A stretch of 64,000 bases of DNA from Chloroflexota bacterium (lineage in GTDB: Bacteria > Chloroflexota > UBA11872 > VXOZ01): assembly GCA_965221905.1 (NCBI GenBank), contig OZ244922.1, positions 2,336,001 through 2,400,000 of the forward strand, given 5' to 3'. A program made the position numbers and the translations under genes. Positions within the stretch are counted from its first letter, which is position 1. Every line of letters begins with the position of its first letter. The notes under the pieces were generated by a model. The model was given only the letters and a program-made list of their open reading frames with translations, was not told the origin of the DNA and did no database searches. This document shows positions 8,129 through 10,028 of the stretch, piece by piece.

Positions 8129-8724
8129 CCGGCTGGACCCGCAGGGCGCATACTTTACCTTGGGAAGGAAGTGCCCTGCAATACCCTCAGCACGATCAGC
8201 TCATCCATCTAAAGGCATCCTCAGAAGGCTCTTGGGCAATGCCACAGAGGGCTTCTGCGCGATGCCTGAGAGGGCTCTCGGTCGACGCGACGGAGATTGT
8301 ATGCGCTTTGCCGTTGACAGCGTAATCCGTTCGCCCTGAGCCTGTCGAAGGACGAACAGCCCGGGAAGACGATCCCCAAATTGCGCTTCCGTTCGCCCTG
8401 AGCCTGTCGAAGGACGAACAGCCCGGGAAGACGATCCCCAAAGTGCGCAATCCGTTCGCCCTGAGCCTGTCGAAGGGTGAACAGCCGGGGAAGACGATCC
8501 CAAAGTGGACTTCCATTCGCCCTGAGCCCGTCGCAGGGTGCACAACCGGGGAAGACGATCCCCAATGTGCGCAATCCGTTCGCCCTGAGCCTGTCGAAGG
8601 GCGCACAGCCAAGGAAGACGATCCCCAAAATTCCCTTCCGTTCGCCCTGAGCTTGTCAAAGGGTGAACAGCCAAGGAAAACGATCCCCAATGTGCGCTTC
8701 CGTTCGCCCTTATATCTTGGAAAA

Positions 8725-8885
8725 GGGAGATAGAATGGGAGCAGGCGTGGCAGACCGGTTCGTCCTAGGTCTGGCAGACCGTGGCTCAGAGTGGTCGCCA
8801 CACCTGCCGAGCTCCCCCAGAGCCCGAACAGTTACCGGGACACGAAGTCCGTATCCGTAAGGCAGGGACTGCATGGGAGCGCCAG
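8725..8885 (+). ncRNA. Predicted IS110 bridge RNA (target-binding loop ~8741-8807, donor-binding loop ~8812-8879)
   Basis: Two stem/internal-loop/hairpin modules. Guides 8758-8766 GTTCGTCCT and 8783-8789 GGCTCAG match the target; 8828-8835 ACAGTTAC and 8858-8861 TAAG match the donor junction. Transcript ends are approximate. Confidence 0.85.
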
Positions 8886-8909
8886 CCATAGTATAGCAGG
8901 AGGGAGGCA

Positions 8910-9845
8910 ATGGCAGTGTACGTGGGGATCGATGTATCGCAAGACCGGCTTGACGTGGGAGTAGCTGACGAAGCGCAGTCGTGGTGGGTTGGGAACGATG
9001 CGGCAGGGATAGAGGAGCTGCGGGAGCGTCTGCTTGCATTGGCGCCGCAGGGCGTGGTGTTGGAAGCGACGGGTGGGCTGGAGAGCGCGGTGGCAGGAGA
9101 GTTAGTGGCAGCGGGGCTGGAGGTGACGGTCGTGAACCCGCGGCAGGTGCGGGACTTTGCGCGCGCCACGGGACGGTTGGCGAAGACGGACGCGATAGAT
9201 GCAGGCATGCTGGCGCGCTTTGGAGAAGCGGTGCAACCGGAGGCGCGCGCACTGCCGGACGCGCAGACGCAGGAGTTGCGGGGCTTGGTAGCGCGGCGGC
9301 GGCAGGTGGTCGCGATGCTGACTGCCGAGTGCAACCGTCTGCCCCGGGCCACCAAGCGGGTTCGTCCCCAGATCAAGTCCCACATTGCCTGGCTGCGGCG
9401 GCAACTCGATAGCCTGGACCAGGAACTGGCGGCGCTCGTCCAAACCAGCCCGCTGTGGCGTGCCCGTGAGAACCTGCTGTCCAGCGTACCGGGAATTGGC
9501 CCGGTTACGGCTACCTGCTTGCTGGCAGAACTCCCGGAACTGGGCAGGCTCAATCGCAAGCAGATTGCCGCGCTGGTGGGGGTCGCTCCCCACAACCGGG
9601 ATAGCGGCACCTACCGGGGCAAGCGCAGCGTCTGGGGCGGCAGAGCCCCGGTGCGCGCCAGTCTCTACATGGCTACCTTGGTCGCAACCCGCTTCAATCC
9701 GGTGATCAAAATCTTCTATGACCGACTGTGCGCCGCAGGCAAACCCAAGAAAGTGGCCCTTACCGCCTGCATGCGCAAGCTGCTCACCATCCTCAACCGC
9801 ATGCTCAATACACAGTCGCCCTGGAAACCAACCACCGCACCTTGA
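8910..9845 (+). CDS. IS110 family DEDD recombinase/transposase
   Basis: GIDVS (D), VLEATG (E), KTDAIDA (D,D), SVPGIG helix-hairpin, RDSG catalytic-serine loop, MRKLL; AGGAGGGAGG RBS. Confidence 0.97.
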
Positions 9846-9862
9846 CACCCAAGACAGTTTCT
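9842..9862 (+). promoter_or_regulatory. IS110 right-end -35 box (TTGACA), half of a circle-junction promoter
   Basis: TTGACA at 9842-9847 overlaps the transposase stop; in the circular form it lies 17 bp from TATCTT (8713-8718). Confidence 0.75.
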
Positions 9863-10028
9863 GAGCCTGTCGAAGGGCGCACAGCCGGGGAAGACGATCC
9901 CCCAAATGCACTTCCGTTCGCCCTGAGCCTGTCGAAGGGCACACAGCCGGGGAAGACGATCCCCGAAGTGCGCTTCCGTTCGCCCTGAGCCTGTCGAAGG
10001 GTGCACGGAAGTGGTGCTTCATAACACC

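What the first reader, a model, noticed from the sequence alone, without database searches (positions are those of the whole stretch)
8700..9880. Scarless, site-specific IS110 insertion at the CT core of a REP hairpin
Seen in sequence: left junction CCGTTCGCC-CT|TATATCTTGG, right junction CCAAGACAGTTT|CT-GAGCCTGTCGAAG. Excising the element regenerates CCGTTCGCCCTGAGCCTGTCGAAGGGCGCACAGCC, identical to the start of array unit 5, so the neighbouring units supply the empty site. There are no terminal IRs and no longer target duplication, only subterminal TCTTGG/CCAAGA. From memory, the donor junction ACAGTTT-CT-TATAT closely resembles the IS621 donor ACAGTAT-CT-TGTAT, while the target is an unrelated REP family. 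Inference: the donor is conserved and the target guide has been naturally reprogrammed to this host's repeat, a safe-harbour strategy.
Basis: partly seen in the sequence, partly recalled or inferred. Interest (0 to 1): 0.75.

Follow-up and report, generated by a model that had tools for sequence, protein, structure and literature searches.

The report
Bridge-RNA IS110 element in repeat hairpin
This is an intact IS110-type jumping gene that carries its own guide RNA matched to a repeated DNA hairpin of its Chloroflexota host and inserts there without a scar; it is a clear new example of a mechanism described in 2024, not a new mechanism.

Summary
Window 8711-9860 is a 1150-bp IS110-group element flanked by one CT on each side. 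It sits in one unit of a 62-bp tandem array of REP-like hairpins.

- **Copies:** the genome has 6 copies, 5 identical and 1 with one difference. All 6 lie at CCGTTCG[C/T]CCT | CTGAGCCTGTCGAAGG, in otherwise unrelated flanks.
- **Empty site:** a sister species has the orthologous site empty, with a single CT.
- **Guide RNA:** the 199-nt left end encodes a bridge RNA. GUUCGUCCU (8758-8766) copies the left target plus core. GGCUCAG (8783-8789) is complementary to core plus right target. ACAGUUAC and AUCCGUAAG match the element's own ends, in the 9-on-7 arrangement solved for IS621.
- **Relatives:** in 25 parsed copies from six genomes of the genus, the right-target guide matches the flank in 25 of 25. 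This includes a single-base C/T switch and a full switch to a different repeat, while the donor ends stay constant.
- **Protein:** it aligns end to end with the IS621 recombinase and keeps D8, E52, D94, D97 and S232.

This biology is already published (IS621, ISPpu9/10; Durrant 2024), so this is a new member of a known kind. No circle junction or transcript of the guide was seen.

The parts
8326..8710 (.). Left part of the 62-bp tandem array of REP-like units (6.2 units). The last unit is cut after CCGTTCGCCCT.
   Evidence: Tandem Repeats Finder, period 62, 86% matches.
8709..8710 (+). Left copy of the CT core dinucleotide (end of the left target).
   Evidence: The orthologous empty site in G003 has a single CT.
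8711..9860 (+). IS110-group insertion sequence, 1150 bp without the core.
   Evidence: Six copies in the genome with the same boundaries. Relatives share the ends TATATCTT.. and ..CCAAGACAGTTT.
8711..8909 (+). Left non-coding end (199 nt) that encodes the bridge RNA. The right end is only 15 nt (9846-9860).
   Evidence: A long left end and short right end mark the IS110 group rather than the IS1111 group (PMC11208160, passage read).
8713..8718 (+). Candidate -10 box TATCTT. It would lie 17 nt from the -35 box only after the element's ends are joined in a circle.
   Evidence: Geometry computed (13 nt of right end + CT + 2 nt). Expression was not tested.
8715..8720 (+). Left subterminal inverted repeat TCTTGG, the partner of 9849-9854.
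   Evidence: Short subterminal repeats flanking the donor are described for the IS110 group (PMC11208160).
8741..8879 (+). Bridge RNA core. The target-binding loop lies between outer stem 8741-8756/8793-8807 and hairpin 8768-8780. The donor-binding loop lies between stems 8812-8825/8865-8879 and hairpin 8837-8851.
   Evidence: Structure counted on 18 relatives. 70.4% of cells are paired against 31.7-47.9% in the slid controls. Covariation score is 0.188 against at most 0.106. Compensatory pairs occur in the stems that border the donor loop.
8758..8766 (+). Left target guide GUUCGUCCU. It has the same sequence as the top strand of the left target plus core, so it pairs with the bottom strand.
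   Evidence: The pairing rule is from PMC11208160.
8783..8789 (+). Right target guide GGCUCAG, the reverse complement of CTGAGCC (core plus right target). 8790-8791 (AG) is the presumed handshake guide.
   Evidence: the complement of this guide equals the first 7 nt of the right flank in 25 of 25 parsed copies.
8828..8835 (+). Left donor guide ACAGUUAC. It matches the right end ACAGTTT+C at 7 of 8 positions; the mismatch is at donor position 7.
   Evidence: identical in 25 of 25 parsed copies. Position 7 of the left donor is reported as mismatch-tolerant in IS621.
8853..8861 (+). Right donor guide AUCCGUAAG. Nine nt read seven donor bases (CTTATAT): UAAG pairs with CTTA, G.T is a wobble, the two C are looped out, and AU pairs with AT. 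8862-8863 (GC) is the presumed handshake guide.
   Evidence: The two looped-out positions vary freely among relatives (CC, AU, GC, UU, UC). The arrangement matches the IS621 structure text.
8910..9845 (+). Recombinase gene, 311 aa, with a DEDD RuvC-like domain and a Tnp domain. Catalytic residues are D8, E52, D94, D97 and S232 (followed by G233).
   Evidence: Aligned over residues 4-305 with ISCro4 (9t56, E 1.6e-44) and IS621 (8wt6, E 2.4e-42). Residues were checked against D11/E60/D102/D105/S241 of IS621.
9842..9847 (+). Perfect -35 box TTGACA in the right end. It overlaps the stop codon and points outward across the junction.
   Evidence: A promoter rebuilt on the circle is described for IS110 (PMC11208160).
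9849..9854 (+). Right subterminal inverted repeat CCAAGA.
9861..9862 (+). Right copy of the CT core.
9861..10001 (.). Right part of the 62-bp array (2.3 units). It starts with the rest of the interrupted hairpin, (CT)GAGCCTGTCGAAGGGCG.

Best explanation
Window 8711-9860 is an active or recently active insertion sequence of the IS110 group. Its DEDD/Ser recombinase is directed by a bridge RNA encoded in the element's own 199-nt left end. One internal loop of that RNA reads the host target, a REP-like hairpin, at GTTCG(T/C)C-CT-GAGCC. The other loop reads the joined ends of the excised circle, ACAGTTT-CT-TATAT. Recombination across the shared CT inserts the element at the stem-loop junction of the hairpin. 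It leaves one CT on each side and no other change.

Shown here:
- the boundaries;
- the six same-site copies;
- the empty orthologous site;
- the guide/target and guide/donor matches and their co-variation in relatives;
- the catalytic residues.

Inferred:
- transcription of the RNA from a promoter rebuilt on the circle (TTGACA-17 nt-TATCTT);
- the circular intermediate;
- binding of the RNA by the recombinase.
For: 1. Family: Pfam PF01548 (E 2.7e-21) and PF02371 (E 1.7e-19). NCBIfam 'IS110 family RNA-guided transposase' at 224.8 bits against a cut-off of 140. Alignment over residues 4-305 with the solved IS621 and ISCro4 recombinases. All five catalytic residues are present.

2. Site specificity: 6 of 6 copies lie at CCGTTCG[C/T]CCT|CTGAGCCTGTCGAAGG. 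Flanks are otherwise unrelated.

3. Scarless insertion: in G003 the orthologous locus of the copy at G000:1301709-1302859 is empty. The two flank matches overlap by 2 bp, and the site reads ...CCGTTCGTCCTGAGCCTGTCGAAGG....

4. Guides follow the published pairing rule: the left target guide equals the top strand, and the right target guide is its complement.

5. Co-variation in 25 parsed copies of 27 examined:
- The right-guide complement equals the right flank in 25 of 25.
- The own element (GGCUCAG) sits at CTGAGCC in 6 of 6.
- The G006 element (AGCUCAG) sits at CTGAGCT in 12 of 12.
- Five copies in G002, G003, G004 and G008 carry [A/C]UGGCCCU and GGGAGAG and sit at ..GGCCCT|CTCTCCC.
- The left donor guide and the right end are identical in 25 of 25.
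- More distant relatives L009, L010 and L011 (56, 53 and 44% identity) have other targets and other ends, each matched by its own loops.

6. Left-guide matches over 8 nt: 16 of 25 are perfect and 9 of 25 have one mismatch. Of those 9, 8 are U.G or G.T wobbles.

7. Site choice within the genome: perfect GTTCGTCCTGAGCC sites are occupied 4 times with 10 empty. The wobble GTTCGCCCTGAGCC sites are occupied 2 times with 51 empty (Fisher p 0.015).

8. RNA structure is supported on 18 sequences. It contains many G.U pairs on the + strand.

9. Recent activity: 5 copies are identical and 1 differs by one base. In run X1 the element's unitig has depth 545.7 against about 110 for the flanks.
Against: - No circle junction and no empty-site form was seen. 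Only assembled contigs, not raw reads, were available.
- The guide RNA region 8711-8909 is not covered by the RNA-library contigs. Those contigs cover only parts of the ORF and may be DNA carry-over.
- The minimum-free-energy fold of the left end alone is not significantly better than shuffles (z -1.65). It also pairs the guides with each other instead of leaving them in loops.
- The outer stem of the target loop has a C.A mismatch in this element where relatives have C-G (pair 15/75; alignment).
- The preference for CTGAGCC over CTGAGCT sites within this genome (6 occupied/61 empty against 0/42) is not significant alone (p 0.08).
Confidence: 0.9

Rival explanations
1. The recombinase itself recognises the hairpin structure or sequence of the repeat. 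On this view the matches in the left end are incidental (the pre-2024 view of REP-targeting IS110 elements).
For: The target is a hairpin, and the core CT closes its 5' arm. A 2026 preprint (abstract read) reports that a target stem-loop adds specificity for ISPpu10. A structural contribution on top of base pairing is therefore plausible here.
Against: Single-base and whole-site changes of the target are mirrored by changes in the two guide segments in 25 of 25 copies, while the protein stays 78-99% alike in DNA. Distant relatives with other targets also match their own loops.
Confidence: 0.04
2. The copies are fossils. The element is intact in sequence but no longer moves, and the six copies date from one past burst.
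For: No circle junction or empty-site variant was found in the contigs laid. The outer stem of the target loop has a C.A mismatch. No evidence was found that the guide RNA is transcribed.
Against: Five copies are identical and one differs by a single base over 1151 nt. The ORF is open with all catalytic residues. The site occupied in G000 is empty in G003, and the repeat itself is lacking there in G004 and G005. The copy in G005 scores 2067 bits against 2076 for a perfect match, while the flanks are 93-96% identical. This points to movement more recent than the split of the species.
Confidence: 0.05
3. The repeated element-plus-hairpin arrangement arose by segmental duplication or is an assembly artefact, not by transposition.
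For: The element lies in repetitive DNA, which assemblers handle badly. Many repeat-to-repeat joints appear in the contigs (table 5).
Against: Flanks of the six copies share nothing beyond the roughly 35-nt repeat. The genome is one 3.52-Mb contig. The same element with the same boundaries is found in five other genomes of the genus. Unitig depth is about five times that of the flanks.
Confidence: 0.01

Closest known systems
IS621 of Escherichia coli (IS110 group; bridge RNA; PDB 8wt6)
   Same: - The recombinase aligns over residues 4-305 (E 2.4e-42) and keeps the DEDD + Ser residues.
- CT core, no terminal repeats, scarless insertion into a REP.
- The guide RNA lies in the long left end, with a target loop and a donor loop that both include the core.
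- A 9-nt left target guide.
- A 9-nt right donor guide that reads 7 bases, with two looped-out nucleotides and a G.T wobble.
- Donor positions 6-14 are similar.
   Different: - The target is unrelated: ATCAGGCCTAC for IS621 against GTTCGYC-CT-GAGCC here.
- The right target guide is 7 nt here and 4 nt in IS621.
- The subterminal inverted repeat is 6 bp here, against the 2-3 bp described for the group.
- The host is an uncultured Chloroflexota lineage (record titles).
- The left donor guide mismatches donor position 7.
ISCro4 recombinase (PDB 9t56)
   Same: It is the best solved-structure match by sequence (E 1.6e-44, 155.6 bits, residues 4-305).
   Different: Only the protein was compared. Its RNA, target and host were not examined here.
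ISPpu9 / ISPpu10 of Pseudomonas putida (REP-targeting IS110 elements)
   Same: Several copies per genome, all in one repeated palindromic intergenic sequence. For ISPpu10 a target stem-loop is part of recognition (abstracts seen).
   Different: No sequence comparison was made here. ISPpu9 carries an extra small RNA gene downstream of the transposase (abstract), whereas this element has only 15 nt after the stop codon.
IS1111 group / seekRNA elements
   Same: Same DEDD recombinase family and the same RNA-guided logic (abstract of PMC11187229; PMC11208160 passage).
   Different: IS1111 elements have a short left end, a long right end carrying the RNA, and 7-17-bp subterminal repeats. This element has the reverse end lengths (199 and 15 nt) and the RNA upstream of the gene.

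Membership tests
IS110 family, IS110 group | DEDD RuvC-like N-terminal domain (PF01548) and a C-terminal Tnp domain (PF02371) with a conserved serine | tested here: met
   (76.4 and 70.4 bits, both over their cut-offs). (NF033542 at 224.8 bits against 140). D8, E52, D94, D97 and S232 align with D11, E60, D102, D105 and S241 of IS621.
IS110 family, IS110 group | No terminal inverted repeats, and no target duplication beyond the shared core dinucleotide | tested here: met
   The empty orthologous site has a single CT.
IS110 family, IS110 group | Long left non-coding end and short right end (the reverse in IS1111) | tested here: met
   Left end 199 nt, right end 15 nt. The criterion is from PMC11208160.
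IS110 family, IS110 group | Excision as a double-stranded circle that rebuilds a promoter across the junction | tested here: inconclusive
   The motif geometry fits: TTGACA at 9842-9847, a 17-nt spacer across the junction, TATCTT at 8713-8718. No junction was seen in contigs of 4 runs; raw reads were not available.
Bridge RNA | Target-binding loop: the 5' side is identical to the top strand of left target + core, and the 3' side is complementary to core + right target | tested here: met
   8758-8766 and 8783-8789 compared with the flanks of 6 of 6 copies.
Bridge RNA | Donor-binding loop with the analogous match to the element's right and left ends | tested here: met
   8828-8835 matches 7 of 8 positions. 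8853-8861 is in the 9-on-7 arrangement.
Bridge RNA | Guides co-vary with target and donor across relatives; stems are conserved by compensatory change | tested here: met
   (guides). (stems): 11 pairs have changes on both sides, and 39 cells against 22.5 in shuffles (0 of 500 shuffles reach this). The alignment was made by sequence only, so outer stems of distant relatives are poorly registered (helix 3 only 38.6% paired).
Bridge RNA | The RNA is transcribed and bound by the recombinase | not testable with these tools
   RNA-library contigs cover ORF parts only.
REP (repetitive extragenic palindromic) elements | Short imperfect palindrome present in many copies | tested here: met
   221 matches to the 25-mer at up to 4 substitutions and 250 to GTTCG..CTGAGC.. 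Compensating variation at positions 8-9 and 24-25. Hairpin of 7+7 bp with an 11-nt loop, -10 kcal/mol, z -1.81 for a solitary copy; weaker (-6.2, z -0.97) for an array unit.
REP (repetitive extragenic palindromic) elements | Association with a REP-associated tyrosine transposase flanked by the repeats | tested here: not met
   One Y1_Tnp match over the cut-off (48.2 bits, G000:3327899-3328216). No copy of the repeat lies within its 1.5-kb flanks. The repeat is therefore called REP-like here.
REP (repetitive extragenic palindromic) elements | Extragenic location | not tested
   No annotation of the genome was made. The six occupied sites and the array lie between ORFs where looked at.

The most novel reading that the evidence does not exclude
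This IS110 lineage may be specialised on the conserved top of one hairpin-repeat superfamily (..TCCT|GAGC....CGAAGGA..) that occurs in several phyla.

- Acidobacterial relatives at only 34-41% protein identity carry almost the same target guides: GUUCAUCCU and CGCUCAG, against GUUCGUCCU and GGCUCAG here.
- Closer relatives (44-56% identity) have moved to other sites.
- Within that frame the guide appears tuned by single bases to the local repeat subfamily.
- A U at the polymorphic position lets one guide use both the T and the C subfamily, by Watson-Crick pairing or by wobble.

If so, target choice in this clade is a conserved trait that would let the element enter a new phylum and find a ready landing site. 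It would not be something reprogrammed afresh in each host.
Probability: 0.25. Interest if true: 0.45.

Novelty: new member of a known kind. Interest (0 to 1): 0.3.

Why it matters
The locus is a clean natural series for bridge-RNA targeting. Within one genus the same donor ends and a near-identical recombinase go with three target-loop states: CTGAGCC, CTGAGCT and GGCCCT|CTCTCCC. Dozens of natural insertions show which mismatches are tolerated, and nearly all of them are wobbles.

That is useful as an independent field check of rules worked out for IS621 in E. coli. It also offers a compact (311 aa, 1150 bp) orthologue from an uncultured Chloroflexota lineage. It does not open a new question: REP targeting, scarless CT-core recombination and programmable loops are all published.

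Tried and rejected
- **Reads for circle junction and empty site.** Only Logan contigs were on offer, no raw reads. None of the 15 joints shown (6 more were not shown) goes back from about 9860 to 8711. All are repeat-to-repeat skips with sides of 20-30 nt, so nothing can be concluded. RNA-library contigs (X17, X18) cover 8950-9345 and 9508-9846 in pieces and nothing of 8711-8909. This counts neither for nor against transcription of the guide.
- **Single-sequence fold of the left end.** It is not distinguishable from shuffles and does not show the loops. I relied on the comparative structure instead.
- **RAYT as a test of 'true REP'.** A Y1_Tnp gene exists but is not flanked by the repeat.
- **Rfam.** No bridge-RNA family matched. 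The only hit of note is sX15, on the opposite strand and below its gathering score.
- **IS621 donor string.** It was not found in the text of PMC11208160. Choi 2003 (PMC166490) is not held.
- **Not available.** ISfinder could not be consulted. Supplementary tables of Durrant 2024, which list IS110 orthologues, are closed, so I cannot say whether this element or its relatives are already catalogued there.
- **Not done.** I built no protein tree, so whether the likeness to the acidobacterial target loop is ancestral or convergent is open. Plasmid and phage collections were not searched for a vehicle of transfer. The hypothetical protein next to sX15 on pXCV183 has no Pfam match.
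Full report
**What is in the sequence.**

The stretch 8326-10001 is a tandem array of 62-bp units. Each unit begins with a hairpin-forming repeat, CCGTTCGCCCTGAGCCTGTCGAAGGGCG... One unit is split after CCGTTCGCCCT (8700-8710) and resumes at CTGAGCCTGTCGAAGG (9861-).

Between the two halves lie 1150 bp (8711-9860) that start TATATCTTGG and end CCAAGACAGTTT. 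A CT stands on each side (8709-8710 and 9861-9862). Joining the halves with one CT gives a 35-mer that occurs once more in the window, at 8576 in an intact unit.

There are no terminal inverted repeats. A 6-bp subterminal pair is present: TCTTGG at 8715-8720 and CCAAGA at 9849-9854.

**The gene.**

The only long ORF of the element (8910-9845, + strand, 311 aa) has the two domains of IS110 transposases. It passes NCBI's model 'IS110 family RNA-guided transposase' at 224.8 bits against a cut-off of 140.

It aligns over residues 4-305 with the two solved bridge recombinases: ISCro4 (E 1.6e-44) and IS621 (E 2.4e-42). The residues that the IS621 structure paper names as essential are D11, E60, D102, D105 and S241 (passages of PMC11208158). 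They correspond to D8, E52, D94, D97 and S232 here, and all are present.

**Copies and site specificity.**

The window's genome is one 3.52-Mb contig with six copies. Five are identical and one has a single difference. All six have the same boundaries and the same flanks, CCGTTCG[C/T]CCT on the left and CTGAGCCTGTCGAAGG on the right. Beyond the repeat the flanks are unrelated.

The repeat family is large:
- 221 matches to the 25-mer at up to 4 substitutions.
- 250 matches to GTTCG..CTGAGC..
- 61 unoccupied exact GTTCGYCCTGAGCC sites.

In the contigs of run X1 the element's unitig has depth 545.7 against about 110 for the adjoining unitigs. This fits a multi-copy element.

**A true empty site.**

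I took the copy at G000:1301709-1302859 and searched five sister genomes with the locus. In G003 the two flanks match contiguously and overlap by 2 bp. The sequence there is the uninterrupted hairpin with one CT. In G004 and G005 the whole repeat is missing at that locus.

**The guide RNA.**

The published rule (PMC11208160, passage read) has two parts. The left guide of each loop pairs with the bottom strand, so it reads like the top strand of left flank plus core. [quoted passage not shown] The 199-nt left end fits this rule:

| Guide | Coordinates | Sequence | Reads |
|---|---|---|---|
| Left target guide | 8758-8766 | GUUCGUCCU | GTTCGTC + CT |
| Right target guide | 8783-8789 | GGCUCAG | complement of CT + GAGCC |
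| Left donor guide | 8828-8835 | ACAGUUAC | right end ACAGTTT + C, 7 of 8 |
| Right donor guide | 8853-8861 | AUCCGUAAG | CTTATAT |

- The one mismatch of the left donor guide is at donor position 7. The IS621 screen found that position to be mismatch-tolerant.
- The right donor guide pairs UAAG with CTTA, then a G.T wobble, then two looped-out nucleotides, then AU with AT. The IS621 structure text describes exactly this arrangement: nine RNA positions 157-165, with 159-160 flipped out and G161.dT12.
- The two nucleotides after each right guide (AG at 8790-8791, GC at 8862-8863) can pair with position 7 of the non-cognate DNA. A pairs with donor T, and G pairs with target C. This is what the handshake model requires. 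It is an inference from sequence only.

**Comparative test.**

I parsed 27 copies: 6 own and 21 from five sister genomes. Two G006 copies with an altered left end could not be parsed, which leaves 25.

- The left donor guide and the last 12 nt of the right end are identical in 25 of 25.
- The complement of the right target guide equals the first 7 nt of the right flank in 25 of 25.

This covers three states:

| Right target guide | Target | Copies |
|---|---|---|
| GGCUCAG | CTGAGCC | 8 (own 6, G005, G002) |
| AGCUCAG | CTGAGCT | 12 of 12 in G006 |
| GGGAGAG, with left guide [A/C]UGGCCCU | a different repeat, ..CACC..GGCCCT\|CTCTCCC | 5 (G002, G003 x2, G004, G008) |

That second repeat also exists in the window's genome (17 GGCCCTCTCCC sites) and is not used by the own element.

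Over the last 8 nt of the left flank the left guide is perfect in 16 of 25 and has one mismatch in 9. Eight of those nine are U.G or G.T wobbles against the bottom strand.

Within the window's genome, sites fully matched at the polymorphic position are used more often: 4 occupied and 10 empty, against 2 occupied and 51 empty for the wobble sites (p 0.015). The contrast between CTGAGCC and CTGAGCT sites (6 occupied/61 empty against 0/42) is not significant by itself (p 0.08).

Three more distant elements have other targets and other ends. They come from a Burkholderiales, a Planctomycetota and a Tepidisphaeraceae assembly, at 56, 53 and 44% identity. Each matches its own two loops.

**RNA structure.**

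I wrote a structure from the own sequence: an outer stem, the target loop, a hairpin, a second stem, the donor loop and a hairpin. I counted it on 18 sequences.

- 70.4% of cells are paired, against 31.7-47.9% when partners are slid by 1-3 columns.
- The covariation score is 0.188 against at most 0.106.
- 0 of 500 shuffles reach the observed values for cells paired, cells changed on both sides, or covariation.
- The number of pairs with a double change (11) is not above the shuffles (228 of 500 reach it).
- The stems bordering the donor loop show clear compensatory changes, for example AU 9, CG 8 and UA 1 at one pair.
- Frequent G.U pairs on the + strand argue that the + strand is the RNA.
- The outermost donor-loop stem is poorly supported (38.6% paired). 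At least in part this is because the alignment of the distant group was not structural.
- The single-sequence fold is not informative.

**Promoter.**

The right end carries a perfect TTGACA (9842-9847) that overlaps the stop codon. If the ends are joined through one CT, TATCTT (8713-8718) lies 17 nt downstream. In the integrated copy the corresponding upstream DNA is the repeat and has no such box. This is the arrangement described for IS110 circles. It was not tested here.

**What was not found.**

No circle junction, no empty-site variant and no transcript of the guide was found. Only contigs were available. RNA-library contigs, labelled sponge metagenome, carry pieces of the ORF with 0-1 differences, but that does not show transcription.

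**Comparison with what is known.**

Scarless excision, a CT core, insertion into REP elements and programmable target and donor loops are all stated in Durrant et al. 2024 (passages read). They are also in the structure paper. REP-targeting IS110 elements of Pseudomonas are the subject of recent work (abstracts).

The element is therefore a new member of a known kind. It differs from IS621 in four ways:
- its target;
- a 7-nt rather than 4-nt right target guide;
- a 6-bp subterminal repeat;
- its host.

The repeat is REP-like but fails the one RAYT test I could run.

**Points worth keeping.**

1. Acidobacterial relatives at 34-41% identity insert at ..GTCATCCT|CTGAGC... The left flank ends GTCATCCT in 27 of 30 loci. 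The right flank begins CTGAGC in 25 of 30, CTGAAC in 3 and CTGAGG in 1, and 1 was not parsed. They carry GUUCAUCCU, or a one-base variant of it, in 16 of 16 loci shown. So nearly the same target loop occurs across phyla, while closer relatives differ. Whether this is ancestry or convergence is open.
2. The copy in G005 lies in the orthologous array but in a different unit. It scores 2067 bits against 2076 for a perfect match, while the flanks are 93-96% identical. This suggests movement between species or a recent re-insertion.
3. The Rfam family sX15 appears to model the antisense strand of an IS110 bridge RNA.

**Limits.**

ISfinder and paper supplements could not be consulted.

Noticed in passing
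window 8732-8887, minus strand; L084 1879-2037 (pXCV183, NC_007507 116378-116536): The only notable Rfam hit is sX15 (RF02234, 43.9 bits, below its gathering score of 55, E 1.8e-05). It lies on the strand opposite to the bridge RNA. At the type locus on Xanthomonas plasmid pXCV183, the reverse complement of sX15 carries the donor-loop signature (..CCCGAACAGTTGC..GTAAGGCTGGG..). It is followed 27 nt later by a truncated ORF starting MNGIGIDVCKAKL. The 2011 paper says sX15 and asX7 are complementary and have 10 homologues in Stenotrophomonas. sX15 therefore looks like the antisense strand of an IS110 bridge RNA. The listing puts papers with more of the terms first, and none of them holds both 'sX15' and 'IS110'.
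   Followed up: partly
L097 and L098 (G006:C1:3129253-3130836 and 2241317-2242884): Two of 14 fetched G006 copies have a normal right end and target, but their left end starts at the internal CT of TATAT-CT-TAGG. That point is preceded by ..GAGACAGCCTCT or ..GAGACAGTCTC, which resembles the right end of another IS110-type element. Possible explanations are element-into-element insertion or donor-donor recombination.
   Followed up: no
L012-L048 (acidobacterial assemblies): A large set of IS110 relatives (34-41% identity) all sit in the repeat ..GTCATCCT|CTGAGCG.. Their target guides differ from the window's by one base each. The hairpin top TCCT-GAGC...CGAAGGA seems shared between repeat families of two phyla.
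   Followed up: partly
window 8326-10001 and L050 (G005:C1:263288-267438): The 62-bp direct tandem array of hairpin units is orthologous in G000 and G005: the flanking genes align. The unit numbers differ, and the element sits in a different unit (7th of about 9 against 4th of about 8). Each unit also has a second small palindrome, GGGAAGACGATCCCC. The origin and role of such arrays are unexplained.
   Followed up: partly
L078, L080 (G005:C1:2844929-2849357, G004:C1:986090-989924): At the locus where G000 has repeat + element and G003 has the repeat alone, G004 and G005 lack the repeat altogether. The hairpin repeat is therefore itself gained or lost between species of the genus.
   Followed up: no
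window 8763, 8774-8775, 8783 in run X4: Contigs of an unrelated study carry T>C at 8763 and G>A at 8783. These are exactly the two guide positions that distinguish the G002 and G006 elements. The guide variants therefore coexist in other communities.
   Followed up: no
relatives G001, G003, G005, G007, G008, G011, G013: Short solo matches to only the first 56-98 nt or the last 45-105 nt of the element occur in several sister genomes. They are possible remnants of decayed copies.
   Followed up: no
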